A DNA stretch of 64,000 nucleotides from Bilabrum cf. latius (lineage: Eukaryota): NCBI GenBank assembly GCA_965178125.1, contig OZ237750.1, positions 868,001-932,000 of the forward strand, written 5' to 3'. The notes beneath the pieces were generated by a model. It was not told the origin of the DNA and did not search any database. It worked only from the letters and a program-made list of their open reading frames with translations. Below, one piece after another: positions 23,400-50,736 of the stretch (position 1 is its first letter; every line of letters begins with the position of its first letter). Position numbers and translations under genes: made by a program.

Positions 23400-28742
<5,343 letters not shown>

Positions 28743-28879
28743 ATTCGGCAGCTTTGGGAGGCGAGCGTTTGCCGCCAAACCGAAACAATGCATTTCATCG
28801 TTTTGCACCTTACAAAAGTGTACGGACAAGCAATCTTCGATTCAAATTTAGAAAGCACTGCTTCGCCCTTGGACTAAAG
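28743..28879. promoter_or_regulatory. Putative bidirectional promoter between the formin and DNAAF4 genes
   Basis: AT-rich gap of 137 bp or less between divergent start codons; no specific motif identified. Confidence 0.45.
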
Positions 28880-31205
28880 ATGCCAATTAAACCTAAGTAT
28901 GAGTGGACGCAGTCGGAGAGGGAAGTGGTAATTAGCGTTTTTATTCCCGGGGCTTCTCCCGATACCACATCCGTTGAATGTGAGTTGCAGTTGGACCGAA
29001 CCCTCACGACTACGACGTTGTGTCCGTTGCGCGCGATCAAAGTTAGATGTACTTATATGTATGTGCACTGCAGGCGGCGATGTGGCTCTGAAGGTGAACT
29101 CTCCCCCGAGTTACTTGCTCGTGGTGGACCTCCTCGAACCTGTGGACGCCAACGCGGCATCAGTTGAATTCTAGGGAGGTACCGTTCGAATAACACTGGC
29201 AAAACGCAACGTGGTTGCGTGGTCTGACTTGTCAATGAAAGGTTTAAGTCCAGCTGATCTTCGCGAGCGCCGGACAGCCTCGCTTGAGAAGGCCAGGCTG
29301 GCCCAGCTGGCTGAGGCAACGGCGCGACGCACTAGGAAACGTGCTGAGAAGGACTTGGCCTTTCGGGAGCAAATGGAGGTAGAAAGAAAGGAGAGAGATC
29401 ATTTGGACGAAGAGAAGCGTATCGAGAAGAGTCGGGCAGAGGCCGAGGTCTTTGAGACTCTCGGCAGCAGGGGCGCAGCCATCGGAGGGGAGACAACCTC
29501 GCGAGAAGCCTCGTCAACCAAATCCGGCAGAGACATATTTAAATCGGATGAAACTGCGCACGCACATGGGGGCTCGTAGTCGGCATCCGTTGCCGAGCAG
29601 CAGGATGCAACCGCTGACGACGTGGTGTACATCCCGGCGCCCCGCGGGGCTTCGGCTGCCGGCAATGCTGCGGTCACGACCCGCAAGGTAGCGATCGGAT
29701 TCTCTCGCCGCGTGTTCCCCACACCCCAGCGCGCCTCCCGGGCCAGACAGGAGGCGGACTGGCTCGCGCGGAACCAGCACCTTATCGATGCGCGGCGCCG
29801 CGCCGAGGCCGCCAGGCGCGGCGAGATCACGGACGGCGGCACCAAGTTTGTCAATGGATCCGAAAGTGCATCCGCATCTGGCTCAACGGACATATCACAC
29901 AGGGATCCCGCCTGGCTGAAGGACAAGGGCGACGACCTGCTGCGGGGAGGGGACGCGAGGAGCGCGGTGAACGCATACACGGCTGCCCTCGACATCGACC
30001 CTGCCCTCAGGGCTGCACTCGGCAACCGGGCGGCCGCCTGCCTGCGGCTAGGGCTGGCTGAGGCGGCTGCCAGGGACTGCACCACCGCAATGATGCTCTT
30101 GCCCACCCCGAGGGAGCCCCCCGCTCCCCCACTTCCTCCAGTTAGCCTGCCCGCGCTGTCCCTGCCTAGCCCTGCCACCGGAGAGGAAGAGAGCAAGGGC
30201 AAGAGCAGTGGCAGTGGAAGCGGCAGTGCCAGCACACCCGCACCCACCCCCGAGCTGCTCTGGGAGCGCGAGGCCCTAGACCGCGCGCAGCGGGCGGCGG
30301 ACTGCCTCGAGGCTCTGCTGGATGGAGCCGAGCAGGAGGTGGTCGGGAGAGGCAGCGGACAGGGCGGTTCCGGGGTGCCCGGTGGGCTGCGGCGTCCAGG
30401 CGTGCTAGGGGCTGACTCTGTGGAATCGGAGAAGCTGGGGCTGGTGAAGCTGCTGGCTCGGCGAGGCACGGCCCACTGCAAATGCGGTGATTTCTTGCGC
30501 GCGCAGGCGGATTTCCACGCGGCCTCAGACGTGGCGGGGCGGTGTGAGGCTGAGGAGGTGCGCGCCAAGGGTCCCATCTTGGAGGAGGACGCGAGGAGGA
30601 TGGGCGTGCTGGCCGACTGTTCCCTGCAGAAGGGCGAGGGAGACGCGGCGCTGAGGAGGGGGGCCGTGGCGGAGGCGGAGCAGGCGTACGCCAAGGCCCT
30701 GGAGCTGGAGCCCGCCTTCGTTCCCGCGCTGGTGAACCGGAGTGTGCTTCGGTCGCGGCATGGGGCCTGGGAGGAGTGCAGGGTGGATTGCACCGGGGCG
30801 CTCCGGGCACTGGGGGTGTCTTCGGACGACAGGCCACTGGCGGTGCAGTTGGAGGCCAGTGGGAAGGAAGGCACGCGGGCGGATTTCGTCCCGGGCCCCG
30901 GCTCCACCCGGCTGCGTGCGTGGCTCCTTGGGGCCCTGCTGAGGCGGGCGCAGGCACTGGTGAAGCTGGGTGAGCTAGCCGAGAGCCTGAGCGACTTCCG
31001 TCGGGCTCTGGAGCTGGATCCTTTGAATCCTAAGGTGCAGGCGGACATGCAGAGGGTGTAGGGCGCCATGGTGGTGGAGGAGGAGGTCTCCGAGGAGATG
31101 CTGCAGAGGATGAAGCAGCAGGAAGGGGAGGGAAGCGAAAGTGGTGGGAAAGGGACAGGGACTGGCTTGTCTGGGGCTGCTGCAGGGTTTGCAACGGCTA
31201 GTTGA
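28880..31205 (+). CDS. DNAAF4: Dynein axonemal assembly factor 4 (DYX1C1-like; CS domain plus TPR); exons 28880-28979 and 29074-31205, about 743 aa
   Basis: N-terminal CS domain (MPIKPKYEWTQSE..LKVNSPPSYLLVVDL), coiled coil, signature IPAPR...IGFSRRVFPTP.R....QEADWL, DPAWLKDKGD and TPRs. Intron 28980-29073 (GTGAGT..tgcAG). TAG at 29172, 29577 and 31059; TGA at 31203-31205. Confidence 0.88.
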
Positions 31206-31560
31206 TTGAGCCATTCATAAAAGTCCCGGGAAATAATTCAAATCAACCACGCAATTTAAGCGGCAGTCGTCGAGACGAACCACGATTCTGACCGTTAGCG
31301 TGTGGTTTCAATTTAATCGGAAATCAACGGACACGAGACCCACCGAATACGTCGTGATTCGGTGTCATTCCGTGAAGCGTTTGCCGACGAAAACATTTAA
31401 TTTCAGTATTTGTAGATCTTGATTCCGGCAAAGTCTCTTCAGACGGATCTGGAAGGGAGCAGCGGTGATAGTTTGGTGCACCGGGGACGTTACCCTCAGT
31501 TGCATTCCATACCTGAATACGGCAGACTTTTTTACCAAACGCTTATCCAGCGCGTGAATC

Positions 31561-34500
31561 ATGTCTAAAGTATTGGAAGCTCTCATTGCACGGGGGCGCA
31601 GGGTACGGCGAGAGGCTGAGCAGCGAGAGGTTGCGTTTGGACTTGCTGATCTGTCTACGCACCCGGAAACCCACGTCAAGATGGTGCGAAAGGGTGCTGT
31701 CCGAACGCTGATGCATTTGGTGGAGAACTCTGGAGACGCGGAAGCCCAGCGATTTGCCGCTCTTGCTCTGGGAAACGTAGCTGCCAGCGAGGACAATAGG
31801 ATCCCGATCGCCGAGGAGGGCGTGATACCCCCGCTGTGTGCTGTGGTGCTGAATCCAGACCGCCCACTCGCAGGTCGATAGTACTGTGCCTTAGTTCTAG
31901 GCAATCTGGCCAGCGAGGCCGAGAACCACGACGAGCTGGTGAAGGCCGGGGCGATTGCGGCGTGCGTGGAGCTGATGCGGAGCGAGGAGGACCTGCCGGG
32001 CCGGTATGCCGCCTTCTGCCTGTCCAATATTGCGTCCAACCCGGAGCACAGGGCTCAAATCGTTGCCGAGGGCGCAGTCGCGCCCCTCGTCGGCGTGGCC
32101 TGCTGCGAGACCCTGGACGCCCAGCGGGCCGCCCTCACCGCCCTGCGCGCCATCGGCATCACGCCCGAGTACCGCCCCAAGATCGTCGCGGAGGGCGTGC
32201 TGGATGCGCTCATCGTGCTGGGGAACATGCGCATCAAGGAGGTCAGCAGGGAGGTGGCCGCCTCCATGAACTCGCTCAGCGCGGTCGAGGAGAACAAGGC
32301 CGAGATCGCCGACAGGTGCATCCGGACCATGACGGACCTTGCCCTCAGCGCGGACTTGGAGACGGAGCGACAGGTCGTGTGCGCGCTGGCCAACCTGTGC
32401 GAGGCTCCAGACCTGCACGAGCGGCTGGTGGACGAGGACCTCCTCACCACCACCACACCGCTGATCCGATCCGACGACTTGCACACCAGGGGGGAGGCAT
32501 GCAGGCTGCTGGCCAACCTGGCCGCCAACGCCGACATGCAGAGGGGCATCATGACATCGGTCGGCGTGGAGCCGCTCGTGGGCGCGCTGGGCACCCCCGA
32601 CCCCCTATGCCACCGCTTCGCGGCGCTGGCGCTGGCCAACTTGTCCACTAACATCACGCACCAGATCAAGATCGTGTCCGAGGGGGCAGTGCGGGCCATC
32701 GTGGAGCTGGCGGGTGGGGCCGACAGGGAGCTGGAGGCGCGGCGCTACGCCGTGCTGGGCATGGCCAACCTGGCGGCCACCACGGGCAACCACCCCGCCC
32801 TACTCGACGAGGGCGCGCTGCACGCACTCTTTGCGATGAGCAACGCAGCGGACGAATTGTCCCAGTACTACGTGGCCTTTGCGCTGTCCAATCTGGCTTC
32901 CAACCCGGACAATCACGTGGCCATTGTGGAGGAGGGCGGGCTGTAGCCCCTCATCGCCCTCTCCTACTCAGACGACCCGGAGACGCACCACCAGGCCGTG
33001 GCCGCACTGCGAGGCCTCTCCGTGAACGACGACAACAAGCTCAAGATCGTTCAGGAGGGAGGGCTCGAGCCGCTGGCCATGCTGCTGCGGTCCACGGACG
33101 TCGAGACGCAGCGCGAGGTGACGGCCTCGCTCTGCAACCTGGCCCTGTCGGACGAGAACAAGTACGAGTTGTCCAAGAGCGGGGCCATCCCTGCACTCAT
33201 TGCGAGGGCGCAGAGCGAGGACTCCGAGGTGGCCAGGCAGGCGTGCGCCGCACTCGCCAACATGTGCGAGATGCCGGAGATCCAGTCCAGGGTGGCCGAG
33301 GAGGGCGCCGTGCAGCCCGTGATCGCCGTCATGCGATCGCCTTTCGTAGAGGTGCAGAGGGAGGCGGGCAGGTGCCTGGCGAACTTGGGGGCGCACCGCG
33401 GGAACCACCCCCAGATCGTGCAGGAGGGCGGGCACCAGCTCCTGATCAGCTACCTGCTGTCGCCCGACACGGCATGCCAGCGGGTGGGTGCCCTTGGCAT
33501 CGAGAACCTCGCCACGAACCCCGAGCTGCGCGTTCTGCTGGTGGACGCCGGGTGCCTGGAGCCGCTCATGAGTCTTGCCCGCAGCGAGGACGTGGAGGTG
33601 GAGATCCAGCGGTTCTCCGTGCTGGCGCTGGCAAACATTGGGACTGCTCCTGCGAACCACGAGTCGATGCTGGAGGAGGGCACGCTGCCGCTGCTCATCT
33701 CGCTGTCCAGCCATCCGGACGAGGAGATCCGGCAGTACGCGGCGTTTGCCCTCGTCAAGATCGGGCACAACGCCGAGGTGCGCAGGCGCATCACCGAGGA
33801 GGGCGGGCTGGAGCCCGTGCTGTACCTGGCCCGCACGGACGACGCCGAGGTGCACCTCGAGGTGCTCCCGGCCATCACCACGCTCTCGTTCGCGGACGCC
33901 AACAAGATTGAGATCGCCAAGAGCGGGGGCCTGGATCCGATCGTGTCGCTGATGAGGCACCCGGAACCCTCCGTGCTGCGGCAGGCGTGCGCCGCACTGG
34001 CCAACCTGGCCGAGGTGGTGAGCAATCAGGTCCGGATCGTGGAGGCTGGAGGGCTGCCCCCGCTCGTGGAGTGCCTGCACTCGGACGAGGACGTGGTGCT
34101 GCGGGAGGCGGCTCGCGCCGTGGGCAACCTTGCTGCCAATTGCGATTTCGGGCGCGTGTTCTTCAAGCTGGGCGTTGTCCCGCTGCTGCTGCGCATGGCT
34201 CGTTCTGACGACGTGGGTTCGCAGAGGATGGGCTGCTTCGCGCTGTCAAATGTCGCTACCAACGTGCGCAACCAGGGCCCCATGATCGAGCAGGGCGTGC
34301 TGGACCCGCTCGTGGAGATCGTGAAGCGCGGCTTGGACCCGGCCGCGGCTGGGGACAGCGAGGCAGAGAGGTACGCGCTGCTGTGCCTGTCCAACCTGTG
34401 CGCCACGCCCGAGAACCACGCCCGGGTGATGGAGGCCGCGCTGGACCACATGGTGGCGTATACCAAGGGGGCAGATCTCAGGTCGAGGCACCACGCGGTC

Positions 34501-37500
34501 TTCGCTCTGGGCAACCTGGCTTCTCAGCAGGCGCACGCGGATGCCATGGTGGAGCGGGGCGTGGTGCACGCGGGCGTGAGCTTCTCTTTCCCTGGCGACC
34601 TGAACGCGCAATTCCAGGCGGTTGCCATGATCCGAGGACTCAGCGTGCTGCCGCACCTGCGCGTGGAGATTATGCGCGCGAACGCCCTGGAGCCGCTCAT
34701 CCTGGCCGCCGACAGCGAGAGCATCGAGGTGCAGAGGGAGGTGGCGGCGGCCCTGGCCAACCTAGCAATGGCCGAGGAGAACAAGATCAGCATCGCGGAG
34801 AGGGGAGGGCTCCCGGCCCTTGTCAAGCTGGCGCGGTCCAGGGACAGGGAGAGGGAGCGGTTCAGCACGGCGGCCATCGCCAACGTGGCAGAGATGCTGG
34901 ACGGCAGGGCCCACGGGCTGCTCATCAACGAGGGCGGGCTGGATGCAGTCCTTGGGCTAGTGGAGACTCCCCTCGAGGAGGTCAAGCGGGAGGTGGCCCG
35001 CACCCTCGCCCTGTTCGCTTCAAGGGAGGACTCGCACCAGGCTCTGATGCGGGCCGGCGGTCACGAGCGTCTCATGAGCTTCCTGCGATCCAAAGACACG
35101 CTGTGCGCGCGCTTTGCGGCTCTAGGGGTGGGAAACCTCGCCCTGGTGCCCGCAGCGCACGCCCACATCCTGCACCGGCCAGCCATGGCTGCGTTGGTGT
35201 CGCTCGCGGACGCGGATGATGTGGAGACGCGCCGGTGCGTCGCATTCGCGCTCAACAACCTGTCCACGAACGAGGCGAACCACGGCCTTCTGGAGCGAGT
35301 GGGCGTGGCAAAGCCGCTCATCTCACTGGCCGCTCGCTTCGACGACACGGACACGCACCTGCAGGCTGTGATCGGGCTGCGGCACCTCGCACTGCACCCC
35401 AAGTGCCGTGTGGACGTCGTGGCGATGGGCGGGCTGGCCCCGCTCCTCGAGCTGGCTTCGTTGGCGAGCGCTCCTCTGGAGGTGGGCAGGGAGGTCACCT
35501 GCGCGCTGCGGAACATATCGCTGAGCGAGTCTGGGAAGGTGGCCCTACAGCGGGCGGGTCTGCTGCCTGTCCTGCTGGCCCTCGCCAGGCAGGGAGACGT
35601 GGAGATGGCGCACCAAGCCCTCGGCGTGGTTGCCAACATGGCCGAGGTCCTGGAGAACCAGACACCCATGGTGGAGGCGGGCACCCTGCAGCACCTCAAG
35701 TTCATGCTTGCCCACGAGAGCATGGAGGTGCAGCGCGAGGCTGCGCGCGCGCTGGGCAACCTGTCGGCAGAGTTCGCTCAAACGCAGCAGCTGGCGGCCA
35801 CGGGCGCATTCCCACCGCTGGTCCGCGCGCTGGCGTGTCCTGATGCCTTGGTGCAGCGGTACGCCACCATGGGCATCGCCAACCTGGCGGCCACGCAGGC
35901 CAACCAGCGGCGGATCATAGACGAGGGCGCGCTTCCCGCTCTCATCGACCTGGCGCAGCTCAAGAACGGAGACCAGGACAGCTAGCGGTACGCCACCATT
36001 GCCCTGTGCAATGTGGCCGCCAACCCTGAGACACACGGCGCGCTCATACAGAGCGGTGCACACGTCCTGCTGGTATCGGCGTGCGGCGCGGACGACGTGG
36101 AGTGCCGGAATGCGGCCGTGCATGGGGTGGCCAACCTGGCCTCGGTGCCCACAAACCACCAGGAGATCATGGCGCAGCAGCCGCTCATCAACCTCATCCG
36201 GTGCGCGGGGCTCACGGACGACGAGTGCAAGCTGTACGCCATTGCGGCCCTCCGCGGGCTCTCGATCACGTCCGAGATCAGGGACGACATCGTGAGCGCG
36301 GGCGGGATGGACGCTCTGCTGCAGCTGACGCACCACGACGATGCCGCGCTGCAGAAAGAGGTGCTCGCCTGCCTCTGCAACCTGTCCCTGTCCGGGTACG
36401 TGGGGGCGCAGGCGGAGAGGTTTGTGGCGTCCACGCCGGTGGCTTCGATGGTCAACTTCCTCTGTAGCGCGGACGCGACCTACCGGCTGTTCGGCGCGCT
36501 TACTCTCGGTAATGTGGCGTCCAAGGAGGACGCCGGCGAGGAGATCATGGGCATGGGCGCGCTGGCGTCGCTCGTGTCGGTGGCAAACGCGTCGGACGCG
36601 GAAACGCAGCGGTGCATCGCGTACTCGCTGTGCAACCTTGCGGCCACGGACAGCCACCGCCGCTCCATCGTCACGGAAGGCGGACTGGTGCCCATCGTGG
36701 CACTGGCTTGTTGCGAGGATGAGGGTGACCAGCTGGCCGCGCACAGCACCCTCCGTGCCCTGGCCAGCGACCCTCTAAACCGCGTGGCAATCGTGCGGGA
36801 GGGTGCCATGGAGGCGCTCTGCGAGTCTGGCTCCAAGTGCACAGACGTGAACGTGCTCATCGAGGTGGCGCAGTGCGCCTGCGCTCTCGGGCTGGCCGAG
36901 AAGAACAAGACCACCATGTCAGAGTCGGAGCTGCTGCCGGTGCTCGTGCGCCTGGCCTCGCACACGGACCCGAGGGTTGCCTCGTTCGCGGCCGGTGCGC
37001 TCGCAAACCTGGCCGAGAACGTGACCACGCACGCATCCATTGTCGGCGACACGCGCTGCGTGGAGCGGTTTTGCATGCTGGTGGACCCGGCTGCCCGGCG
37101 GGGCCGCCTGATGGAGTGGCTCCAGCGCGCATCCGCGGGCTGCGGTGCCATCGAGGGCATGCTCAAGGAGAGGGAGGACGCGGGTGGGCTGGCGAGGCCC
37201 GGAGGACCTGGCGCCAAGGTGGTGGACAACGTGGCAGAGGCTGAGACTGCTGTGCAGAGGCTGCAGGCCGCTCTGGTGGGGCAGGCCACAGCCGGGGGCT
37301 CGGCCTCGGCGGCTCGTGCGGGCAGGTCGGCCTCCGGGGCTGCCTCTGGGGATAGGGCCGACGTGGCTGCGCTGGCGATCGCCTCGGGCGAAGAGGCCAA
37401 AGCAGGTGCGGCCGAAGCCATGAGCGGGCTGGATCCTACTCGGCCTGGCATTGGGGAGTCGGAGCTGGGTGCGTCCATGACGCCGGATGAGACCAGACAG

Positions 37501-40500
37501 GCCGTGTGGGCGGCGGCAGACATGGACGACCTACAGATCATCATCGCTGCGGCTGCGGACACAAACTACGCCGCCAATGTGGTGTTGCTGCGTCGCGAGT
37601 GCGCCCGGTGCATCGCCAACCTCGCCACGAGACACCCCACCCACGGGCACCTTGTGGCCAAGGGCGTCTTCGACGCGGTGGCCCTGGCGCTGGGAGATGG
37701 TGACCCGGGCGTGCGTCATTTCGCGGCCATGGCTGCGTCCAACCTGACTACCCGCAAGACGCACCACGAGCGGGCGTGCGACCCTCGCTGCGAGCTGGTG
37801 GAGAAGCTTGTGGGACAGGCAATCGGCTTCTAGCCGCCGGCCCCCAGCAATATGGAGGGGGAGCCATCCCCTATGGCAAGGCGGTACGCGTGCCTGGCCC
37901 TGGGCAACCTGGCCATGCGTGGCGAATTCAACGTTCACCTTCGCGAGGCCGGCTGCGTAGAGTCGCTCGTCTCCTCCCTCGCCGAGGAGCACGAGATCGA
38001 GACGAGGTTCCACGCGGCCTACGCGCTCGCCAAGCTGGGTCAGGATCCTTCCGTGCACGAGGACATCGCCACGGACGAGCACGCCATCCCTAGGCTCGTC
38101 GCGCTCATGGATGCTGATGACGCGCCTGCCACGTGCCAGGCAATTTCTGCCCTTCGGAGGCTGGCTGAGAACGCCGTCGTGCGGCCAAGGATCGTGGAAC
38201 AAGGCATATTGGACTCGCTGGTGCGCAGCGCCAAGCTCAAGGCCGTGGAGATCCAGCGAGAGACGGCTGGCTGCATGAGCAACCTAGCTCTGGACGACAG
38301 CAACAAGGCGGCCATGGCCAGGCACCCCGTGCTCAAGTCGTGCATCTCTTTGTGCAAGGTGGCCGACATCGAGGCCTCGAGGCACGCCACGGGCTGCCTT
38401 GCAAATCTGGCGGAGGACGCCGTGACGCACGACGCTCTGTGCGAGGAGGCCGGCGTGCACTTCTTGGTGCAGCTGATGTGGTCCAAGCACCTCAGCACTT
38501 ACAGGGAGGCCACGCGAGCAGTCGCAAATGTGCTGGCCACGCAGAATCCCGTCCACCGGCTGTTTCGTGACGAGGGTGGCGCAAGGGCGCTGGTCAGGGT
38601 AGCGCGCATCAGCGACGACCCGCCGCTCCGGTACTGCGTGGCGCTCGCGTACAGAAACCTGTGCTGCAACCCTGAGAACCACCCGACGCTGGTGACCAAC
38701 AGCGCCGCAGAGCCGCTCATGGGCATCTGCGTGGAGGGTGCGCACGTCAGCACCAGGGTGCATGCCGCCACTGCGCTGCGTGATCTCTGCAGCAACCCGG
38801 CCTTCAAGCTCAAGCTCGAGGAGGCGGGTGCCCCGCACGCCCTCACCTCGCTCATGGAGGCGGACGAGGTGGCGCTCCGAGCTCTGGGAGCCGCGGGCGT
38901 GCGGTACCTGTCGCTCAAGCCGGTGCTCAAATCGAAGCTCGTGCGCGCAATGCCGGACTGGAAGGGATTCGGCGCCGCGGGGGCAAAGGATGGCAGTGGC
39001 GCCATGGTCGCGACTGCAGGGGCGCGCAGGCCTAGGGCCAGCTCCGTGCTGCTCGCGCTGCTTGGCTGCGCAGACGCTGCCCTGGCCACGACCCCTCACG
39101 GGACCGACCTGCAGATCCATACGGCCGGCGCCATCGCCTCGCTGGCCGAGCGCACCGACCTGCACGAGGAGCTCCTCGAGGGCGGCGCCTTCCTGGCACT
39201 GGCTGCGCTGGCCAGGGTGCCGCACGAGTCGTGTCGCCGAGAGGCTGCCTGCGCCTTTGCCCGGCTTAGCACGAACGGCGAGCTGCACCCCCTCGGCGTG
39301 ATCCCCGAGGAGGCCCTCAAGGCCTTGTGCAACCTCCTGACCTCCCCCGAGCAGCTCTGTGGGAGGTACGCCGCCATGGCCATGGGCAACCTGGCCGTGC
39401 TGCGAGACAACCAGCTCGCGTTCGCCAGGCTCGGAGCCGTGCCCCCGCTCGTGTCGCTGTTGTCCTCGCCGTACGCCGACGTGCAGCACTACTCGGCCAG
39501 GGCACTGGCTCGGCTGGGCGGATGCCTAGAGAACGCCGCGCTCATTCGGGTAGAGGGCTCTATACGGCCACTGTGCGAGATGCTTGCCAGCCGGCACGAA
39601 CCGACGCAGCGCTCGGCTGCCATGGCACTGTGCAACTTGTGCTGCGATGCGAACAACTGCGCGGCGCTGGCGCACTACGGGGGCCTCGAGGCGATGGCGG
39701 TACTGGTGAAGGCACCTCTACCTGGCACGCTGTAGAACCCCAACTTCGATGAGGATGATGATGATGATGATGAGGACGAGCGATAGGGCGGAGCTGCTGC
39801 GGCTGCTGGTGCGGGCGAGACGGAAGGGAAGGGTGGCGCGGGCGCTTCGGAAAGCAAAGATGCAGACGAGGAAGCCGCCGCCGATGGTTCAGATGAACAA
39901 TCTGGCGCGCAGGAGAAATCAATCGCGGATCGGATCAAGTACAGCTCCGTGGCAGTCAAGCGGTACGCCGTGATGGCCATGAGCAACCTGTCCGCCGAGC
40001 GGGACATGCAGCCGCTGGTCGTGCAAGCCGAGTGCATCCGCCCCATGGTGCACCTGTGCAACACCACGGCTGACCCGGACACGCGCCGCTTCGCCGCCAC
40101 GACTTTGGCCAACCTGGGCTCGCACGAGAAGAACCGCCGTCGGCTGGTCCTGGCAGGCGCCCTCGAGGCGCTGGTGCACCTGTCCAAGTCGGGGAGCATC
40201 GAGTGCCAGCGGGCAGCGGCCATGGGTCTGTACAACCTCAGTAGGGAGGCCTCCAACCTCCGGGACATGGTGCGCGAGGGCGGCAGCCAGGCGCTCATCA
40301 GCAGGGCGGGCTCGCCCGACCTGGACGTGCGGCGCTACTCTGTGATGACCCTGTGCAACCTCGCGGCCAACGAGGACACGCGCATGGGGGCCACGCGAGG
40401 GGGCGGCCTGCAGGCCATGTCGGTGGCGGCCACGGACGACGACGACGAGGTGCGGCGTTACGCCCTCGTGGGCCTCTGCAACATGGCCATCTCGGAGGAG

Positions 40501-43500
40501 ATGCAGGTGCAGGTGGTGGTGCACGGGGGCCTCAAGGCCATCCTAGAGGGCGCCAACGCAGAGGACGACGACGACCTGAACCGGCATGCGCTCATGGCTC
40601 TGGGTAACATCAGCTCGAATGAGGAGAATCTGGACGAGCTGCTTGACAGGAACGTGATCGGAACGTGCATCCGCCACGGCCTGCCCGCCACGCAGGTCGA
40701 GCCGGACACAAGGCAGTACGCAGGCTTCGTGCTTGCCAACCTCACAGCCCACTCGTATTTGCTGGAGGAGCTGGGGGAACAAGGAGCCATCGGGTGCCTC
40801 GCGGAGCTGGCCAGCGCCGACGACGGCAACGTGCGGTGCTTGGGCGTGACCGCTCTGCGCCGCATGGCGGACACGGGCCGCAACCGCCGGCGCATCATCA
40901 AGGAGCACGGCGACATGGTCCGCGAGGCCCTGTCTCGGGCCAGTCGGTCGGCTCACGTGGAGACGCAGCGCGAGACGGCTGCCTGCGCCAGCAACCTGGC
41001 TCTGGACGAAGAGAACAAGGCGGACCTGGCGGCGCATGAGGGCCTCCTCAGGGGCATCATTGGGCTGTGCCAGAGCCCCGACCAGGAGGCCGCCCGGTTC
41101 GCGTGCTCTGCGCTGGCCGGCATATCGGAGGATCTGTCGACGCACGACGCGGTGACGAGGTGCGGAGGCGGCTCGTTCATGATCGGCCTCATCCACCACG
41201 AGGGCGTGGATGTGCACAGGGAGGCCTCGCGGGCGCTGGCCAACCTCATGTCATCCTTCGATACGCACCCTGACGTGATTGCTGCCGCGCTGCCCGGCCT
41301 CGTGGTCCTTGCCCAGAGCACCGACGAGGAGTGCCGTAGGCACGCAGCGCTGGCCTACCGCAAGCTGGCCCCCAACCTGGCCTCCCACGAGGGCGTGGCC
41401 AAGACAGGGGGCCTCGCGGCGGTGCTGGCGCTCACCGCGGTTCGAGACCATGGCACCCGTCGGCAGGCCGCCATCGCCCTTAGGGACCTGTGCGCGAACC
41501 CGGACCTCAAGCCGAGGCTGGCGCAGGAGGGCGCCACTGGCTCTCTGTTTGCGCTGGCGAGGGACCCTTCCCCCGAGCTGCAGTGCGCGGCCATGGCTGG
41601 CCTGCGGCACCTGTCAATGGACGACAGGCTCAAGGGAGGGATCGTGCACGAGGGGGCCGCCTCGGTCGTGCTGCGGGTGGCCGACACGAACGTGCCGGAC
41701 ATCCAGGCGCAGGTGTGCGGGCTTCTGGCCAACCTGTCTGAGGACCTCGAGAGCCAGGCATCGCTGGTGGAGGACGGACTCGTGCCCCCGCTGGTGACCC
41801 TGGGCCGCCTGGAGAACGACGAGATCCAGCAGGACGTGGCTCGCGCGCTGGCCAACCTTGCTTCCAACGAGGAGAACCACGTGCCCATGTACCAGCAGGG
41901 CGCCCTGCAGCGCATGTTCTCGCTCACCGACTCGCCCGACGACGTGACCCAGCGGTACGCGGCCATGGGCATCCGGTTCCTCTGCAGCAACGCCATATGC
42001 AGGGTCAGCATCGTGCAGGACGGCGGTAACCTCCGCGCGTTCGTCAACCTCGCGCAGACGCCACTCATCGACTTCCAGCGCACCGCCGCCGTGGCCTTCT
42101 CGAGCTTCTCGCTGGCTCCGGAGAACAGGGCGCTGCTGGTGCGGGAGGGTGGGCTGGCGCAGATACTCGCGTGCCTGCTGTTCCCCGACCTGCAGGTGCA
42201 GCGCGACTGCGCCTTTGCGCTGGCCAACGTGTGCGACTCGGTCGAGCTCCAGGACGCCGTGGTGCGGGAGGGGGCCGTGCCCGTGCTGGTGCAGATCGGG
42301 CTCTCTGACGACGCCAGGGTGCAGCGGGAGGCGGCGAGGTCCTTCAGCTGCCTGTCGCTCACGGACGGACTGAGGAAGCCGCTCGTGGACGCGGGGTCTC
42401 TGGAGACGATCTTCGCCCTGTCGCGGTCCATGGACCTCGCGTGCCAACGGTTTGCGAGCCTGAGCGTCGCAAACCTGGCGGCGGGTGACATCCGGGCCAG
42501 GCTGGTGACGGAGGGTATGACGGGCCCGCTGGTGTTCCTGGCCAGGTTCCCGGACGCGGACGTGCAGAAGTATGCCGCGCTGGCCATGGCGGCCCTGGCC
42601 CTCGGAGACCACGGCGGCAACAAGACGAGGCTGGTGGACGAGGGCGTGGTCAAGCCGCTGGTGGAGCTGTGCAGGTTTCCCAACGTGGAGGTGCAGCGGA
42701 GCGCCACGCTGGCGGTTGCCGCGCTGACGGTCGGTCCCAAGGAGAAGCCCAAGCTGTCGCTCATGGGCGAGGAGGGGCTGCTTCCACTCATCGCGCTCGC
42801 TGCCAGCCAGGACGTGGAGGTGCAGCGCGCCAGCACGTTCGCGGTGGGCTCCCTCGGCGAGTGCAAAGAGGTCCGCGCGAAGCTGGTGGAGCTCGGTGCG
42901 GTCGGGACCATGGTGGAGCAGGGCAGGTTGGCGGGCGACATCGAGACGCGCCGCAACTGCGGGTACTTTCTGGCGGAGATCTCCGAGTCGCCCGAGTTCC
43001 ACGACGAGCTGGTGCACGAGGGCGGGCTCAAGACGCTCGTGTACCACGCCGGCCTCGAGGACGACGAGGTGCAGGAGTACGCCGCCTTTTCCCTCGCGCA
43101 CGTGGCCTCCAACCGGGAGTACCAGGTGCCTGTGGTCAAGGCCGGCGCACTGGAGCCGCTCGTTTCCATGATGAGCGTGCACGCCAAGCCTAGGAACTAC
43201 GCGGGGCTGGCGCTCCTCAAGCTGGCAGACAACTTCGAGTGCCACCTGCCCATTGCAGAGGCGGGCGGCGTGCAGGCGCTGCTCCGTCTGGCTCGGTCCA
43301 AGAGCAGCGACTCGGAGCTGGCCTACAAGGCAGCCCTGTCCGTGGGGCACCTGGCCACCAACGCGGTCAGGCTGCTGCCCAAGGGGGTGCTCGCGCCCAA
43401 GGGGGGCTTCGCGGGGGATGGGAACACCGGGCCCGGGAGCACGGGGGGGGATGCCATGGAGGTTCGCACAGCGGGGCCCAGGCGGAGGGGAGGGGCAGCG

Positions 43501-43710
43501 CGCCGCGAGGAAGACGCAGAGTTTGCTGGGGAGAGGCTGCAGTCCGCCCCTGGCATGGGTGCCATGGGTGGTGCAGGAGATGAAAGTGGCGATGGCGCAG
43601 CGGCCGGCGGTGCGGCGGACCTGCCCGTTGGCTCGATCGTAAGAACACACGCCGAGGAGCGCGCCAAGGATTTCCTCGACCGGGCGACTTCCAGGGTCGG
43701 TGGGAGTTGA
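31561..43710 (+). CDS. Giant armadillo-repeat protein (Vac8-like annotation class), about 4049 aa, intronless
   Basis: Dozens of ARM repeats (GGLxPLxxL...QRxAxxALxNL). Six ORF-track pieces in one frame joined by TAG at 31879, 32944, 35983, 37831, 39733 and 39784; ends at TGA. Confidence 0.9.
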
Positions 43711-43907: not shown

Positions 43908-45307
43908 TCAAGGGCTGTGCTCGAATTGGTTCCAGACTACACTGCCTAGATCCCCGCTGCGACCGCCAGCCAGAGAGATCGTCCTGACAGTATTCTCTGG
44001 CACGAATCCATTGGCGCCGATTGAAGCCATTTCCTCTCTCTCTACGCGCCTGGCAAATAGTACAATTCCTTCCATTTCTCTTGCTGACATGACATCAGCG
44101 CCGTCTTCTACAAAAGAGCTCGAGCTCTAGCTGCTGAGCTGGCTGCTCCGACGCGTGCCAAGAGATGGTCGCTAGGTCTACCCTGGGGCACGAAAGCCCT
44201 ACCCAACGTAAGGAGCCGCGTGATCGAGATGTCCCGATTGAGCATCCTACTTGGCGGAAATGTGGGCCTCCACCGGCGGGCTAACCCGCTCTCTCATTGC
44301 ACCCTGCAGTCCTGCGAAGGGGTCGCCCGACGGCCGTGCGACTCTCACGGAGCCCGTCACGGAGAACTTGCGGTATATCGGGAGGAGAGGGCTGCGGCGG
44401 TGCAGCACATGCTATAGCTGCATGGACTTCGACTGCCTTACGATGCTAGGGGACTCATCTGCGACTCGAAGGGGGCCACCACGGCCCTGCCGCCCGGCAG
44501 AGACGGGGCGTCCTCCCCACCTGGTCATCCCTGTAATGCCACTGGCACTGGCGCTGGCACTGGCAGCCCCCCTCGCAATGGGTACAATTCTCGCTATGAT
44601 ACGATCTGGTCCGTCAAGGTATGGGCTACCAACGATGCCTGCGCCGCTACCGCCACCCTCGCTGCCCTCTGCCAGCGAACCCTATCGGCCAGCGGTCACC
44701 GGCGGACGGTCGGGCGTCTCGCCTCCGCTGCCATTCGAAGCCCCGGCGGCAACCCACGTGTGCTGCCCGGGGCGGAGAGACGGCAATACATGCATGGGTA
44801 GCATGACCAGCTGCTTGCTGTTTGTCTTCGCACGCCTACACTCATCAGCCTCAACGAGCGAAATGCCTGACGAGGACCCGGCAGGGACGGGGATATCTGG
44901 CGTTGCACGAGAAACCCTATCGAGAGCTTCAGGATGCAGCTGATTCAAAGAAGGGCGTCGAGGCATGAACCCAAGAGCTCTTCGTGTGACAAAATCCTTC
45001 GGGCATGCCTTCCTGCGGCTATCGTGCCCGCATGGCTCCGTCCACCTCTTGCCCGGCACGATATCGGCACTAACATCTCGCGCGGAAGTATCGCCGACCC
45101 CTGCTGTGCCCCGCGATTCGGATGTAATCGCCAGATTCTCCGTGGACGAAGATCTGTATGCTGGAAGTTCACCGAGTGGTTTCTGCTAATTGCCTTGATT
45201 TTGCCAACCGAAGGAATCTGCACTATCGCGACCCTCGTCTGGTGGCGACGGTCGCAACCTGGAATTCGCTTGCCTGGCTAAAACACTCTCCGCACACTAC
45301 ACCCCCC
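43908..45307 (-). CDS. Orphan low-complexity protein A (terminal exon; 5' exons unresolved) with the shared C-terminal motif
   Basis: Candidate acceptor ctttcAG at 45308-45310. Frame open to TGA 43908 except TAG at 45297, 45186, 44682, 44412, 44247, 44199, 44178, 44172 and 44127. Ends MEGIVLFARRVEREEMASIGANGFVPE...GDLGSVVWNQFEHSP. Confidence 0.55.
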
Positions 45308-46072
45308 CTGAAAGATAGAAGTAAGTTGAAACATATATTATGGTGGTTGTGCTGGGCATCGTCTGCCGCTTTTCGCGGTAGCAATCCAGTGTTCTTGTAC
45401 TGGCCTGCAGTATGAATCCACAATTCTTGTCGATGTCGCCAGCCACCCGATTGCACAAGCCGTCAAAATATGATGATATTAACCAATATTGCTAGAATAC
45501 TTATCTCACTTGCATCTGGCCCGTTTAGCTGTCGAGGTGCACTACCTGGCTGCGATGTATGGTTGAGAGCCGCTACTTGGTGCTCCTCATCGCTAGCAAT
45601 CATCGAAATTTGAGCCAATCGCGCAATAGATAATGATTATGACTCACGTTTACTGAACGTTGAATGCCACATTGATCAGTCGCTTGTGGTAGCATCTATC
45701 CGACATGCTCCTAGTGGTCGGTGGGAGGCACACGCAGCTGGCCTGTCTGCTGCTGTGAATCGGACTGTCCTTCAGACGCTGGTCCGTCAAGCTTAGAAAG
45801 TGGGACGACTGGGTGTATACAAGCGCGGCACGATGTGCAACTTCCCATCTGTTTGGCTTGGAAAGTTGCCTGCTTAGTGCACGGCAGCGCCGCAGCGGGA
45901 CGCGTGTACTGAAGGCGAAGTTCGCTGCAGTGCCGAACTTGAATGCAAAAAATGAAGATGATCGTCGATCTAGGTATAACCTATAAACTTTGTGCGGTGC
46001 ACGATGACCTGATGCAACATGCAATAATCAAGACAAGACGAAGCCTATCACAGCTACCGGTCAACATGGACA

Positions 46073-48484
46073 TTACCCGATAGTGCGCTCGTCCTCGATC
46101 TGGCTCCACGCCACGCTCTCGACGTCCCCGCCGATGCCCCCTAGCAGGCTCGACAGCCTGCCTCTCCGCTCCGGTGCGAAGCCCCCGGCCCCAACAGAGG
46201 CCCTCTCCTCCCTCTCCACCCTTTTGGCGTACTCCAGGATGCTGGCCAGTCCCTCGGGAGAGATGCCCTCCGTGCGCGTGTATATGTGCGAGCCGCCGTC
46301 ACTGGGCTGACTGCTGCGCCGGGCGTGCACGTGAAGAGGGTGCGGCCTCCTGGAGCGGGGCGTGTGCACCCCAGGAAACTCATCTGAGTACGCTCTAGGC
46401 TCTTGCCTCGGCCCACTGGCACTGATTGCGCCGCGAATGACCCCCCGGGGAGATGGAGCGTCCTCGGTGTGGTGCCTGCCAGCAGCCTGAGAGCCCTGCA
46501 GCTTGCCAGTCACTGAGATGGTCCTAGGAACGCTAGGACCGGCCATTCCTAGCAGTTGGCCTACCTGCACTGTGTTTGAGTGCCTAATCACTCCGGATGG
46601 GGCTCGCTCTGCTGCTGGGCCTGCGCCCGCTAACCTCCTTCTTCTTCCATCAGCAAGCGGGGCATGGGGTCCGCCGCGACGCATCGAGCCCGATCTGGCG
46701 CCACTCGCTGCGAGTCTATGTACTACGGAGTGTTTCATCATGACGTGGTCTCTGAGTGGCAGCGGCAGCGGCGGCACGATCGGACGCGCCTGACCTTGAA
46801 CTGGCGATGCCGCCTGCCCTTGAATTGGCGATGCCGCCGCGTGCTGGCGCAGGGTGTGTGCCAGCTCACCGCTTCGTTTGCTGGTGGTGCGGGTGAGTGA
46901 TTTCTAGACCGGCTGGAGATGGATAGAGCCAGCCGTGGCCTCTCCTTCCGCCCTCTACCCGTGCTCTTCATGCTCCTGCTGCTCCTGACCCCCCTCGCTC
47001 TGCTCGTTGCTGGAGCTGTTCCGATCGAGGTCCATGTGGTCAGCCACTATGGATCGATGCGTCGAGTGGTGCTGCTCCGGCTGCATGTCTGCGTACAACT
47101 CACCTGCCCACCGGGATTGGTCCCCGCGTCTCCCTATACCGAACCACTTGGTGCGTCCATGTCGCACCCTCGCGACCTGAACCCCCCGCACGTGCCCACC
47201 CCTGGGGTCTCGCCGGGCTGGGCTCAGCAACCCGCCGGTTGGAGAGTCGTCGTCGTGGTAGTCCATCCGTGAGATAGAATCAGCATCGCTGAGGCGTGCA
47301 CGAGATCGAACCGCTTGCCCGTCCGGACCAGAGCCCCCGCCCTTCAAGTTGCCCCCAGTTCGCGCACCATCATTGCTTCCCACTGCAGGCTAGGCGGCGA
47401 TGTGCTGCTCCAACTCCGGCTTTGGCACTGGTCCCACCTCTAGACTCATTGCGACAAATCCAGGAGCATCCATGGCAGAGCCATTCACGTCGGACTGGGA
47501 GGAGAGCATCATCAATCCCTTCAAGTTGCCCGCGCTGCCACTGGCGTTCGAGGTGGACAGGGGGGCAAGCTGCATGGACCTCTGGGAGACCTTGGCCCCC
47601 AGCGGTCCGCTGCTCGTGCAGTCCAGAGCCGCAGCAGCAGAAGTAGCCGAGCTGCCCTATGCTACTGCACAAACTCCGCCCATGGGCCCTGTAACTTTCA
47701 AGCGCTGCAGCTGTCTGCGCTTGTCAAGGTTGGGCACTGCCCCACCGGTGCATCCATTTGCTGGAGCACATTCTGGGATTCGCTGAACTGTTTCATGGCT
47801 CTTGGCCTGCAATTTTGCAGTATAATCCGGTGCTGCAGCTTGCTGCCCCCCTGGCTCTTGTTCTACGGCAGCATGCCAACCGCAAGTTGATGGAGTTGCA
47901 CGCGAGCAGTCCGCTCCGGTAGATTGCCCTGTCGGCGACACGTTGGCATTTCTATGCACGCAGGGTTGTGATAATGATCCGACTTTTGAACCTGCTGGAA
48001 CTTGGGTGCTATTGTAGAAGCATTGGGAAGTTGCAAGGGGTTGCCTGGCGGTGATGCGGAACGCACCTCAGGCTCATCAGGCATATCAAGCGACAGTAGA
48101 AGCCCCATTGGATGCAATAATTGCTCTCACTGGAGTTCACACTGTGATTTTTATCGTGGCATTGTAAAGCACTGTTATTTTGTGCCTGCAAATATGGTGA
48201 AGTGGGAGGCAGGTTGATTCTCAGAGAAAAATGCAACTCAACCAATCATTAAGACATGTAGTGGCAGCGCATCTCAGCTGCAAAACGGTATTTTCAAGGC
48301 TCACATCGGGGTAACAGTCTTCGCTTGCAATTCCTTGGCCTGCGCCGTGGGCACGTGCACCACATTCCGAGCCTCCAACGCCCAACTTGTACCCGGAGTT
48401 CGGTACGCCGCCGTCGTGCAGAATGTCAGGCATGGAAGGCTGCACTTGGCTACTTTGCGATTCATCCCCTAAACAATTTCCCAT
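46073..48484 (-). CDS. Orphan low-complexity protein B with the shared C-terminal motif; possible MGNC- lipidated N-terminus; 5' splicing unresolved
   Basis: Frame open from about 48067 to TAA 46073 except TAG at 47657, 47390, 46955 and 46904. Candidate first exon MGNCLGDES (ATG 48484) ends at a GTGAGC donor (48304). I could not close all splice phases by hand. Confidence 0.55.
46095..46294. repeat. 200-bp direct repeat, copy 1 (copy 2 at 48661-48860)
   Basis: Manual comparison shows 2 mismatches in 200 nt. Confidence 0.93.
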
Positions 48485-50190: not shown

Positions 50191-50736
50191 CTGCAATAGA
50201 CTTCCTTGCAGTGCGCATTCCATCAATACCACCAACTTACCATGCTACTTGGAGCAATCAGCTCCTGGGTTGCAATCACCTGTTGATTTAGACTGCAAAT
50301 ACGGAGGAACGCGGTATCAATCACGGGCCAGTCAAAAAATAGAAGGAGAAGTATAAGTGAAGCATAGACTAAGCTCAACCTTGCCGAATTCAAATCGACT
50401 GAAATTATACATTTGATACCAATAATTACCTAAATTCGCAGTAGATATTTAGGAAACAAGGTTTTATCCTTGCCTTACCGTACGAACAATCCCACGCTAC
50501 TATTCTTGTTCCTTTGGAACGTAAACTCCCATGTCAAGACGACCATCTTCGGTGTGTACTTGATGATGTACTGCGCTCGCACCACATGGCGAATTTCCCA
50601 TCGAGCTTAGGCCAAAAATGCCGCACTTCACCTCGGCACAATTATATTCCGAGTTGCTTTATCGAACGTTCGCTATTTCGCTCCTTTTTTTCCGAAGCCG
50701 TTGTTGAAGCAGTGTACATGGCAATCCAGTGCAGCG

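What the first reader, a model, noticed from the sequence alone, without database searches (positions are those of the whole stretch)
31861..36030. Self-contained proof from ARM repeats: TAG aligns with Gln in sister repeats of the same protein
Seen: DQDS*RYATIALCNV (TAG 35983) parallels LV-Q-RYATMGIANL, VT-Q-RYAAMGI, EA-Q-RFAALALGNV and EI-Q-RFSVLALAN. AGR*YCALVLGNL (TAG 31879) parallels EIR-Q-YAAFAL and DTR-Q-YAGFVLANL. EEGGL*PLIAL (TAG 32944) parallels EGAV-Q-PVIAV and EGGL-E-PL. The assignment therefore needs no external database.
Basis: seen in the sequence. Interest (0 to 1): 0.8.

Follow-up and report, generated by a model that had tools for sequence, protein, structure and literature searches.

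The report
TAG read as glutamine, eukaryote gene
A 4,049-codon armadillo-repeat gene of a GC-rich protist carries six in-frame TAG codons that are read as glutamine, but this is shown by orthologues and a sister species rather than by the protein's own repeats.

Summary
The quoted strings and TAG coordinates are all real. One frame (31561-43710, +) is open for 4,049 codons, ends in TGA, and holds six TAG but no TAA or TGA.

I aligned the protein's 86 ARM repeats formally. Only TAG 35983 falls in a Gln-dominant column (Q 34 of 85). TAG 31879 falls in an Arg column (R 54, Q 3 of 85). TAG 32944 falls in a mixed column (E 16, P 15, Q 7 of 85). Taken together, the repeat profile prefers Arg over Gln 14-fold.

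The outside evidence is decisive:
- Collinear stramenopile orthologues have Q at the three sites in 7 of 7, 7 of 7 and 8 of 11 sequences.
- In metagenome loci of a sister species (about 80% nt, 94-96% aa identity), all 14 TAG-containing codon pairs are TAG against CAG or CAA, in both directions.

In this window TAA and TGA still end genes, which matches NCBI table 15.

The organism is probably a deep-branching stramenopile. Seven literature searches found no nuclear code change reported for that group. No tRNA, eRF1 or RNA evidence was available.

The parts
31561..43710 (+). Single-exon gene for a 4,049-residue armadillo-repeat protein (P0001). It starts at an ATG two codons after an in-frame TGA at 31555 and stops at TGA 43708-43710.
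   Evidence: Similarity to the sister-species loci starts at 31560. Residues 1-1828 are collinear with stramenopile orthologues.
31879..31881 (+). In-frame TAG, residue 107 (AGR-TAG-YCALVLGNL).
   Evidence: Own-repeat column: R 54, Q 3 of 85. Orthologues: Q 7 of 7. Sister species: CAG in L001 and L003.
32944..32946 (+). In-frame TAG, residue 462 (EEGGL-TAG-PLIAL).
   Evidence: Own-repeat column: E 16, P 15, Q 7 of 85. Orthologues: Q 7 of 7. Sister species: CAA in L001.
35983..35985 (+). In-frame TAG, residue 1475 (DQDS-TAG-RYATIALCNV).
   Evidence: Own-repeat column: Q 34, R 24 of 85. Orthologues: Q 8, K 2, R 1 of 11. Sister species: CAG in L002.
37831..37833 (+). In-frame TAG, residue 2091, in a linker between repeat blocks.
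   Evidence: Only one orthologue aligns there (D), in a gapped stretch, so the site is uninformative.
39733..39735 (+). In-frame TAG, residue 2725, at the edge of an acidic low-complexity insert.
   Evidence: The orthologue alignments are gapped here, so the site is uninformative.
39784..39786 (+). In-frame TAG, residue 2742, inside the acidic low-complexity insert.
   Evidence: The orthologue alignments are gapped here, so the site is uninformative.
31612..37092 (+). ARM repeat block 1 (44 repeats, residues 18-1844). This is the best conserved part and holds the three TAGs of the finding.
   Evidence: It is 43-50% identical and collinear with orthologues.
37582..38868 (+). ARM repeat block 2 (10 repeats, residues 2008-2436).
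39103..39720 (+). ARM repeat block 3 (5 repeats, residues 2515-2720).
39949..43305 (+). ARM repeat block 4 (27 repeats, residues 2797-3915).

Best explanation
In this organism TAG is an ordinary sense codon for glutamine, while TGA (mostly) and TAA end genes. This is the pattern of NCBI translation table 15. The organism is a GC-rich, intron-poor, flagellated eukaryote, most likely a deep-branching stramenopile. The giant ARM-repeat gene is intact and under strong purifying selection, and its six TAGs are translated as Gln. What is shown: TAG sits inside conserved coding sequence, it corresponds to Gln in orthologues, and it swaps freely with CAG/CAA between close relatives. What is inferred from other UAG-to-Gln lineages, and not seen here: decoding by a tRNA-Gln with anticodon CUA, and a release factor eRF1 that no longer recognises UAG.
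For: 1. Frame integrity. The frame runs 4,049 codons with six TAG, no TAA and no TGA, and ends in TGA. Across the window, 16 long ORFs hold 82 in-frame TAG. Of these ORFs, 14 end in TGA and 2 in TAA.
2. Orthologues. I compared 12 homologues (P0002-P0013), using an X-masked query and only collinear HSPs of at least 35% identity. Residue 107 is Q in 7 of 7, residue 462 is Q in 7 of 7, and residue 1475 is Q in 8 of 11 (K 2, R 1). At residues 107 and 462 Gln is conserved across orthologues even though the repeat consensus there is Arg and Glu/Pro.
3. Sister species. Loci L001-L003 align to the gene without gaps at 78-81% nt identity. In L001 plus L002, 1,668 codons compare as 814 identical, 768 synonymous and 86 non-synonymous. 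All three window TAGs are CAG or CAA in the relative. All 11 of the relative's own in-frame TAGs are CAG or CAA in the window. That is 14 of 14.
4. Neighbouring CS-TPR gene. Four of 9 aligned TAG pairs are TAG against CAR, all in well-aligned stretches.
5. Dynein heavy chain (DHC). TAG at residue 1203 of the C-terminal exon (FFHAVV-TAG-ERRKFGPLGWN) aligns with Q in 116 of 118 full-length dyneins. It also aligns with Q in the two DNAH6 chains (8j07_g5, 9d2f_T) whose alignment reached that residue, of the three shown.
6. Relatives' gene calls. Three protein fragments of relatives in the database look like bacterial-code calls (one starts with M where the window has a GTG codon). They carry Q where the window has TAG (residues 332, 498, 638). 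They also end exactly before window Gln codons 279, 573 and 668.
7. The TAGs are not errors of one assembly. Contigs from runs of three different studies reproduce the gene with 0 differences over the stretches they cover. X1 and X5 cover 31400-39740, and X8 covers 35812-39740.
8. TAA is not a sense codon here. Reading through TAA never extends a gene body. TAAs fall only in 5' flanks or at gene ends. The two TAA-terminated ORFs meet a TGA 15 and 4 codons later, in sequence of low GC3.
Against: Several TAGs fall in columns where distant homologues rarely have Gln:
- DHC residue 673: D 95 of 113.
- DHC residue 638: D 65, E 31, Q 11 of 115.
- DHC residue 60: E 33, D 28, A 25, Q 5 of 120.
- DHC mini-exon: K 68, Q 8 of 110 (all).
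- DnaJ residue 75: K in 5 of 5 solved J domains shown.
- Two of the three ARM sites lie in non-Gln columns of the protein's own repeats.
- In the CS-TPR gene, 5 of 9 aligned TAG pairs face S, G, D, E or G, though in poorly conserved stretches.
No tRNA gene was found in the window or in the loci, and no whole genome is held. So neither the decoding tRNA nor eRF1 has been seen. No transcript or peptide evidence exists. Whether TAG also terminates some genes cannot be settled from 16 ORFs; in one ORF the last TAG lies 5 codons before the TGA.
Confidence: 0.92

Rival explanations
1. TAG encodes arginine, the residue that the protein's own repeat profile would predict.
For: The joint leave-one-out repeat profile favours R over Q 14-fold. 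R is 54 of 85 in the column of TAG 31879 and 24 of 85 in that of TAG 35983.
Against: Orthologues have R at only 1 of 25 aligned positions over the three sites, against Q at 22 of 25. None of the 14 TAG partner codons in the sister species is an Arg codon. The DHC residue 1203 column has Q 116 and L 2 of 118, with no R.
Confidence: 0.01
2. TAG encodes an acidic residue (Glu or Asp), or is decoded ambiguously as Gln and Glu. By recall, TAR = Glu is known in peritrich ciliates and Blastocrithidia.
For: Four DHC TAGs lie in D/E-rich columns: D 95 of 113, D+E 96 of 115, and E+D 61 of 120. E is the top residue in the repeat column of TAG 32944. One GAG/TAG pair occurs in the CS-TPR gene.
Against: No GAG, GAA, GAT or GAC appears among the 14 partner codons in the ARM gene. 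Orthologues show no E or D at the three ARM sites. DHC residue 1203 is Q in 116 of 118. The D/E columns lie in the coiled-coil stalk, where charged and polar residues interchange.
Confidence: 0.03
3. The TAGs are genuine stops or errors: a pseudogene, an assembly artefact, or separate ORFs.
For: Under the standard code the frame breaks into 7 pieces.
Against: Only TAG interrupts the frame, with no TAA, TGA or frameshift in 12.1 kb. Against the sister species there are 768 synonymous and 86 non-synonymous codon differences, which indicates strong purifying selection across the TAGs. Contigs from three studies reproduce the sequence exactly. The same pattern holds in 15 other ORFs, including dynein.
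Confidence: 0.01
4. The genome has TAG but the mRNA is edited (U to C) to CAG, so the code itself is standard.
For: No run on record as RNA was available, so the transcript sequence has not been seen. Editing would give the same protein-level result.
Against: It would need site-specific editing at about 80 sites in 64 kb, and at different sites in the sister species. I recall no nuclear system of that kind. TAG and CAR interchange between relatives as synonymous codons do. Contigs of run X6, labelled only as a guess to be RNA, keep TAG at 37831.
Confidence: 0.03
5. [quoted passage not shown]
For: This cannot be excluded from 16 ORFs. In the 2,209-codon WD40 ORF the last TAG lies 5 codons before the TGA.
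Against: All 16 ORFs reach a TGA or TAA. In 14 of 16 the last TAG lies 47 or more codons before the stop. One exception is the WD40 ORF (5 codons). The other is an intronic TAG 16 codons before the end of the dynein middle exon ORF. TAGs are spread along the gene bodies.
Confidence: 0.08

Closest known systems
[quoted passage not shown]
   Same: TAG is a sense codon that aligns with conserved Gln. TAA is not co-reassigned. TAA and TGA terminate genes. TAG is spread along gene bodies like a synonymous Gln codon.
   Different: The lineage differs: best named hits are all stramenopiles, not ciliates or metamonads. The genome is GC-rich (57-69% in 2-kb windows). TGA is the main stop here (14 of 16 ORFs), whereas UAA dominates in the ciliates (93.5-100% of C-terminal alignments; passage read). 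The tRNA and eRF1 have not been examined here.
UAR = Gln codes (NCBI table 6: many ciliates, Dasycladales and relatives, hexamitid diplomonads; recalled)
   Same: Stop-to-Gln reassignment, presumably through mutated tRNA-Gln anticodons.
   Different: TAA is not a sense codon here. No TAA lies inside any of the 16 gene bodies, and 2 ORFs end on TAA.
Giant ARM-repeat proteins of stramenopiles (orthologues P0002 Phytophthora aleatoria, P0006 Leptocylindrus danicus, P0007 Platysulcus tardus, P0013 Heterococcus; one carries the automatic label 'Vacuolar protein 8')
   Same: The first 1,828 residues are collinear and 43-50% identical. All are proteins of about 3,700-4,700 residues built almost wholly of ARM repeats.
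   Different: The window protein has long low-complexity inserts (residues about 1845-2007, 2437-2514 and 2721-2796). It lacks the kinase domain listed for the Phytophthora protein. The function of the family is unknown.
Giant viruses that read TAG as Gln, noted earlier in this scan (e1-5306704, e1-5483507, e1-5483497; AI notes) and alternative-code giant-virus MAGs (PMC13524828, passages read)
   Same: Same codon table: TAG = Gln, with TAA and TGA as stops.
   Different: Those are viral genomes with unknown hosts. No link to this organism has been tested.

Membership tests
Table-15-type nuclear code (UAG = Gln; UAA, UGA = stop) | In-frame TAG inside conserved, selected coding sequence | tested here: met
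   Six TAG in a 4,049-codon frame. 82 TAG in 16 ORFs. 768 synonymous against 86 non-synonymous codon differences to the sister species.
Table-15-type nuclear code (UAG = Gln; UAA, UGA = stop) | TAG positions correspond to Gln in homologues | tested here: met
   ARM orthologues have Q at 22 of 25 positions. DHC residue 1203 is Q in 116 of 118. 14 of 14 TAG/CAR swaps with the sister species. Exceptions: DHC residue 673 column is D 95 of 113, and DnaJ residue 75 is K in 5 of 5.
Table-15-type nuclear code (UAG = Gln; UAA, UGA = stop) | TAA and TGA keep their stop function | tested here: met
   14 ORFs end in TGA and 2 in TAA. No TAA lies inside a gene body. Sequence after the TAA stops has low GC3. 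The sample is one 64-kb window.
Table-15-type nuclear code (UAG = Gln; UAA, UGA = stop) | TAG no longer terminates genes | tested here: inconclusive
   All 16 ORFs run on to a TGA or TAA, but one has a TAG 5 codons before its stop. No transcript ends are available.
Table-15-type nuclear code (UAG = Gln; UAA, UGA = stop) | Cognate tRNA-Gln with anticodon CUA | not testable with these tools
   No tRNA gene in the window or in L001-L003. No whole genome is held.
Table-15-type nuclear code (UAG = Gln; UAA, UGA = stop) | eRF1 with altered stop-codon recognition | not testable with these tools
   No eRF1 family among the Pfam hits of the 16 window proteins. No genome is held.
Table 6 code (UAA and UAG = Gln) | TAA also used as a sense codon | tested here: not met
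   If TAA were used in the CAA:CAG ratio (115:610), about 15 in-frame TAA would be expected beside the 82 TAG. None was seen inside a gene body.
Armadillo repeat proteins (Pfam PF00514) | Tandem repeats of about 42 residues that match the Arm profile | tested here: met
   PF00514 matches at E 1.6e-190, 612 bits against a cut-off of 20.6. 86 repeats, modal spacing 41 residues.

The most novel reading that the evidence does not exclude
This may be the first nuclear stop-codon reassignment seen in a stramenopile: a GC-rich, deep-branching heterotrophic lineage in which UAG alone became a Gln codon. At least one sister species shares the change, and TAG/CAG differences occur even between 99%-identical sequences. 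Such a lineage would also be a concrete candidate host group for the TAG = Gln giant viruses recorded elsewhere in this scan.
Probability: 0.4. Interest if true: 0.75.

Novelty: new member of a known kind. Interest (0 to 1): 0.6.

Why it matters
Nuclear code changes are rare. Cases in which UAG changes meaning while UAA stays a stop are rarer still: the passages of PMC11687900 read list a handful (an uncultured rhizarian, Iotanema, Scotinosphaera, a few ciliates). A further, independent case would add a data point for how UAG and UAA become uncoupled, especially in a GC-rich genome that mostly stops on TGA and probably belongs to the stramenopiles.

There is also a practical consequence. Standard-code gene callers chop this organism's genes at each TAG. 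The relatives' proteins in public databases are visibly cut at Gln positions. Annotation of this genome and of related metagenome bins therefore needs table 15.

There is a methodological lesson too. Sister repeats of one protein are a weak guide to a reassigned codon, because repeat-specific residues (here Q107 and Q462) depart from the family consensus.

Tried and rejected
- Whole genome for a tRNA or eRF1 search: none is held.
- tRNA scan of the window and of L001-L003: 0 genes.
- RNA evidence: no RNA holder is listed among the 19 runs. All four runs laid are contigs, and the two 'RNA?' labels are guesses, so neither editing nor expression could be tested.
- A 137-nt skip in one X5 contig (43362-43498) was considered as an intron. 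None of the five possible cut positions gives GT-AG ends, and its length is not a multiple of 3. It looks more like an indel variant in the low-complexity tail.
- Own-repeat conditional contexts do not help. With R-x-[YF], x is R 5 and Q 2 of 10. With L-x-P, x is E 5 and Q 0 of 11. With x-R-[YF], x is Q 5 and R 5 of 18.
- The DnaJ J domain as a test site: the TAG aligns with K in the 5 of 5 alignments shown, at a variable surface position.
- DHC stalk positions are variable or acidic columns and do not support Gln.
- Earlier notes of this scan hold nothing on this genome.
- Seven literature searches and two papers checked by term search (PMC12480563; PMC13768787) gave no report of a nuclear stop-codon reassignment in stramenopiles. 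PMC12480563 mentions only a plastid UGA = Trp.
- The single-gene ARM tree places the window with Platysulcus, apart from the oomycete/ochrophyte side (96/96 support, 8 rows, midpoint root only). That is too thin to name the lineage.


Full report
THE OBSERVATION

Under the bacterial/standard code, the + strand between 31561 and 43710 reads as a chain of same-frame ORFs. Translating the frame shows one continuous armadillo-repeat protein. The only in-frame stops between the ATG at 31561 and the TGA at 43708 are six TAG codons, at 31879, 32944, 35983, 37831, 39733 and 39784. There is no TAA, no TGA and no frameshift in 4,049 codons. Pfam Arm matches at E 1.6e-190.

I masked the TAGs as X and built a repeat profile by iterated HMM search, starting from one repeat. 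This found 86 repeats, spaced 41 residues apart in 51 of 85 intervals. I cut the protein into repeat units and aligned them with MAFFT.

Column counts, leaving out the repeat that holds the TAG:
- TAG 35983: Q 34, R 24 of 85. Q is top, at 12.5 times its 3.2% background.
- TAG 31879: R 54, H 5, L 5, Q 3 of 85.
- TAG 32944: E 16, P 15, R 8, A 8, D 8, Q 7 of 85.

Leave-one-out HMM emissions give Q probabilities of 0.350 (rank 1), 0.036 (rank 5) and 0.082 (rank 6). If a single residue must fill all three sites, Arg beats Gln 14-fold. Scored as P(columns | residue), Arg is 5.5e-4 and Gln is 3.1e-4, with Lys (6e-5), His (5e-5) and Glu (3e-6) far behind. Conditioning on the flanking residues does not rescue Gln.

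So the repeats narrow the choice to Arg or Gln. They are not a self-contained proof.

WHAT SETTLES THE IDENTITY OF TAG

(a) Orthologues. A search with the whole protein returned 14 long ARM proteins. Twelve of them (P0002-P0013) were compared with the window protein. Those spanning the N-terminal half (P0002-P0008) are collinear with residues 1-1828 at 43-50% identity. I used an X-masked query and kept only HSPs of at least 35% identity. Residue 107 is Q in 7 of 7, residue 462 is Q in 7 of 7, and residue 1475 is Q in 8 of 11 (K 2, R 1). The three linker TAGs align poorly and say nothing. Residues 107 and 462 are repeat-specific glutamines, conserved across stramenopiles against the repeat consensus. 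That is exactly why the sister-repeat argument misses them.

(b) A sister species. A metagenome scan gave three loci that align without gaps to window 31560-33936 (L001), 33973-36602 (L002) and 31560-32197 (L003). Identity is 78-81% at the nucleotide level and 94-96% at the protein level. Over the 1,668 codons of L001 plus L002, 814 are identical, 768 differ synonymously and 86 differ non-synonymously. The gene is therefore under strong purifying selection across its TAGs. Window TAGs 107, 462 and 1475 are CAG, CAA and CAG in the relative. The relative has 11 in-frame TAGs of its own (residues 166, 517, 725, 823, 1017, 1019, 1330, 1344, 1432, 1449, 1540), and every one is CAG or CAA in the window. 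That makes 14 of 14 TAG-containing pairs, three of which differ at two bases.

(c) Other genes in the window.
- In the dynein heavy chain, TAG at residue 1203 of the C-terminal exon aligns with Q in 116 of 118 full-length dyneins. It also aligns with Q in the two DNAH6 chains (8j07_g5, 9d2f_T) whose alignment reached that residue, of the three shown.
- In the less conserved CS-TPR gene upstream (about 66% aa identity to L001), 4 of 9 aligned TAG pairs are TAG against CAR, in well-aligned stretches. The other five face S, G, D, E and G in divergent stretches.
- Three database protein fragments of relatives are 81-99% identical to the dynein middle exon. They look like bacterial-code gene calls: one starts with M where the window has a GTG codon. 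They carry Q where the window has TAG (residues 332, 498, 638). They also end just before window Gln codons 279, 573 and 668.

EVIDENCE THAT DOES NOT FIT AS WELL

Several TAGs fall in columns where distant homologues seldom have Gln:
- DHC residue 673: D 95 of 113.
- DHC residue 638: D 65, E 31, Q 11 of 115.
- DHC residue 60: E 33, D 28, A 25, Q 5 of 120.
- Dynein mini-exon: K 68, Q 8 of 110 (all).
- DnaJ residue 75: K in 5 of 5 solved J domains shown.

Most of these are coiled-coil or surface positions. I read them as lineage-specific substitutions. They do show that distant-homologue columns alone would have given a mixed picture.

THE REST OF THE CODE

Sixteen long ORFs under TAG = sense cover most of the window. 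They hold 82 TAG against 610 CAG and 115 CAA. Fourteen end in TGA and two in TAA. Three of the 82 TAGs turned out to be intronic.

Reading through TAA never lengthens a gene body. TAAs fall in 5' flanks or at gene ends. The two TAA stops are followed by a TGA 15 and 4 codons later, in sequence of low GC3. This is the pattern of NCBI table 15. One window cannot show whether TAG also terminates some genes.

NOT AN ARTEFACT

Contigs from runs of three different studies reproduce the gene with 0 differences over the stretches they cover. X1 and X5 cover 31400-39740, and X8 covers 35812-39740. A fourth run (X6) covers TAG 37831.

WHO IT IS

The window is 57-69% GC in 2-kb windows. It is gene-dense and has few, short introns: two were found in the dynein gene, and the first begins GTGAGG. 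It encodes axonemal dynein, a formin, a RabGAP, a fasciclin-domain protein and an ion channel.

All four named orthologues of the ARM protein are stramenopiles: Phytophthora, Leptocylindrus, Platysulcus and Heterococcus. The first dozen organism-named dynein hits are also stramenopiles, being oomycetes, Hondaea, Ochromonas and Ascophyllum. The 720-residue dynein piece, however, also hit Colponema and others at similar identity. A single-gene tree puts the window with Platysulcus, apart from the oomycete/ochrophyte side. I read this as a probable deep-branching stramenopile. It is not proven.

COMPARISON WITH WHAT IS KNOWN

UAG-only to Gln is reported for Hartmannula sinica, Trochilia petrani, Protocruzia tuzeti and Iotanema spirale (PMC11687900, passages read; PMC5304391, title and abstract seen in the listing). 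Seven full-text searches found no report of a nuclear stop-codon change in stramenopiles. That library lacks most subscription journals, so this is not proof of absence.

Earlier AI notes of this scan describe giant viruses that read TAG as Gln and have unknown hosts. The codon table is the same, but I tested no link.

MECHANISM

Shown: TAG is translated within selected coding sequence, and it behaves as a synonym of CAG and CAA.

Inferred, by analogy with other UAG-to-Gln lineages: a tRNA-Gln(CUA) and an eRF1 that spares UAG. Neither gene lies in the window or the loci, and no genome is held.

VERDICT

TAG = Gln is correct with high confidence. The claim of a database-free proof from the repeats is not supported. 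At the organism level, this is a new member of a known kind of code variant, in a lineage where none seems to have been described.

Noticed in passing
window 61250-62000 (- strand), inside the dynein gene 55312-63998: Two short introns flank a mini-exon that encodes part of the microtubule-binding region (…AAV-TAG-ALNALEPKDIVELRSFPSPPEGV…). The first intron begins GTGAGG directly after …ALPELE. The three last 'TAGs' of ORF 61836-63998 (residues 685, 689, 704) are therefore intronic, while the mini-exon carries one more in-frame TAG.
   Followed up: partly
window 43908-45359, 46073-47683, 48633-49994 (- strand): Three tandem genes without Pfam matches share a C-terminal motif of about 60 residues. 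The last two are identical over that stretch, which suggests a recent duplication or gene conversion. The first has 9 TAGs in 483 codons and a GC3 of only 0.59.
   Followed up: no
window 23400-28793 (- strand), formin (FH2) gene: A run of roughly 200 residues of (GTGTGM)n-like low-complexity sequence lies inside the ORF. Similar simple-repeat inserts occur in the GH63-like gene and in ORF 50563-53025 (GADFGKG repeats).
   Followed up: no
window 43362-43498: One contig of run X5 skips these 137 bases in the low-complexity C-terminal tail of the ARM gene. No cut position gives GT-AG ends, and the length is not a multiple of 3. It is probably a strain indel that changes the tail's frame.
   Followed up: partly
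window 29061-31205 (+) versus 31561-43710 (+), compared with L001: The neighbouring CS + TPR gene is only about 66% identical at protein level to the sister species, whereas the ARM gene is 94-96% identical. The giant ARM protein is therefore under unusually strong constraint. (By recall, CS + TPR is a DNAAF4/DYX1C1-like architecture; only the TPR repeats are in Pfam.)
   Followed up: partly
dynein ORF 61836-63998 (residues 638 and 668) versus P0036: P0036 is a 99%-identical protein fragment from another data set. It has Q where the window has TAG (residue 638), and it ends just before a window CAG (residue 668). This suggests TAG/CAG differences even between very close strains.
   Followed up: partly
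window 29399-31069 (- strand): A 556-codon ORF with no TAG and no Pfam hit lies antisense to the CS-TPR gene. It looks like one of the long spurious antisense frames typical of GC-rich DNA.
   Followed up: no
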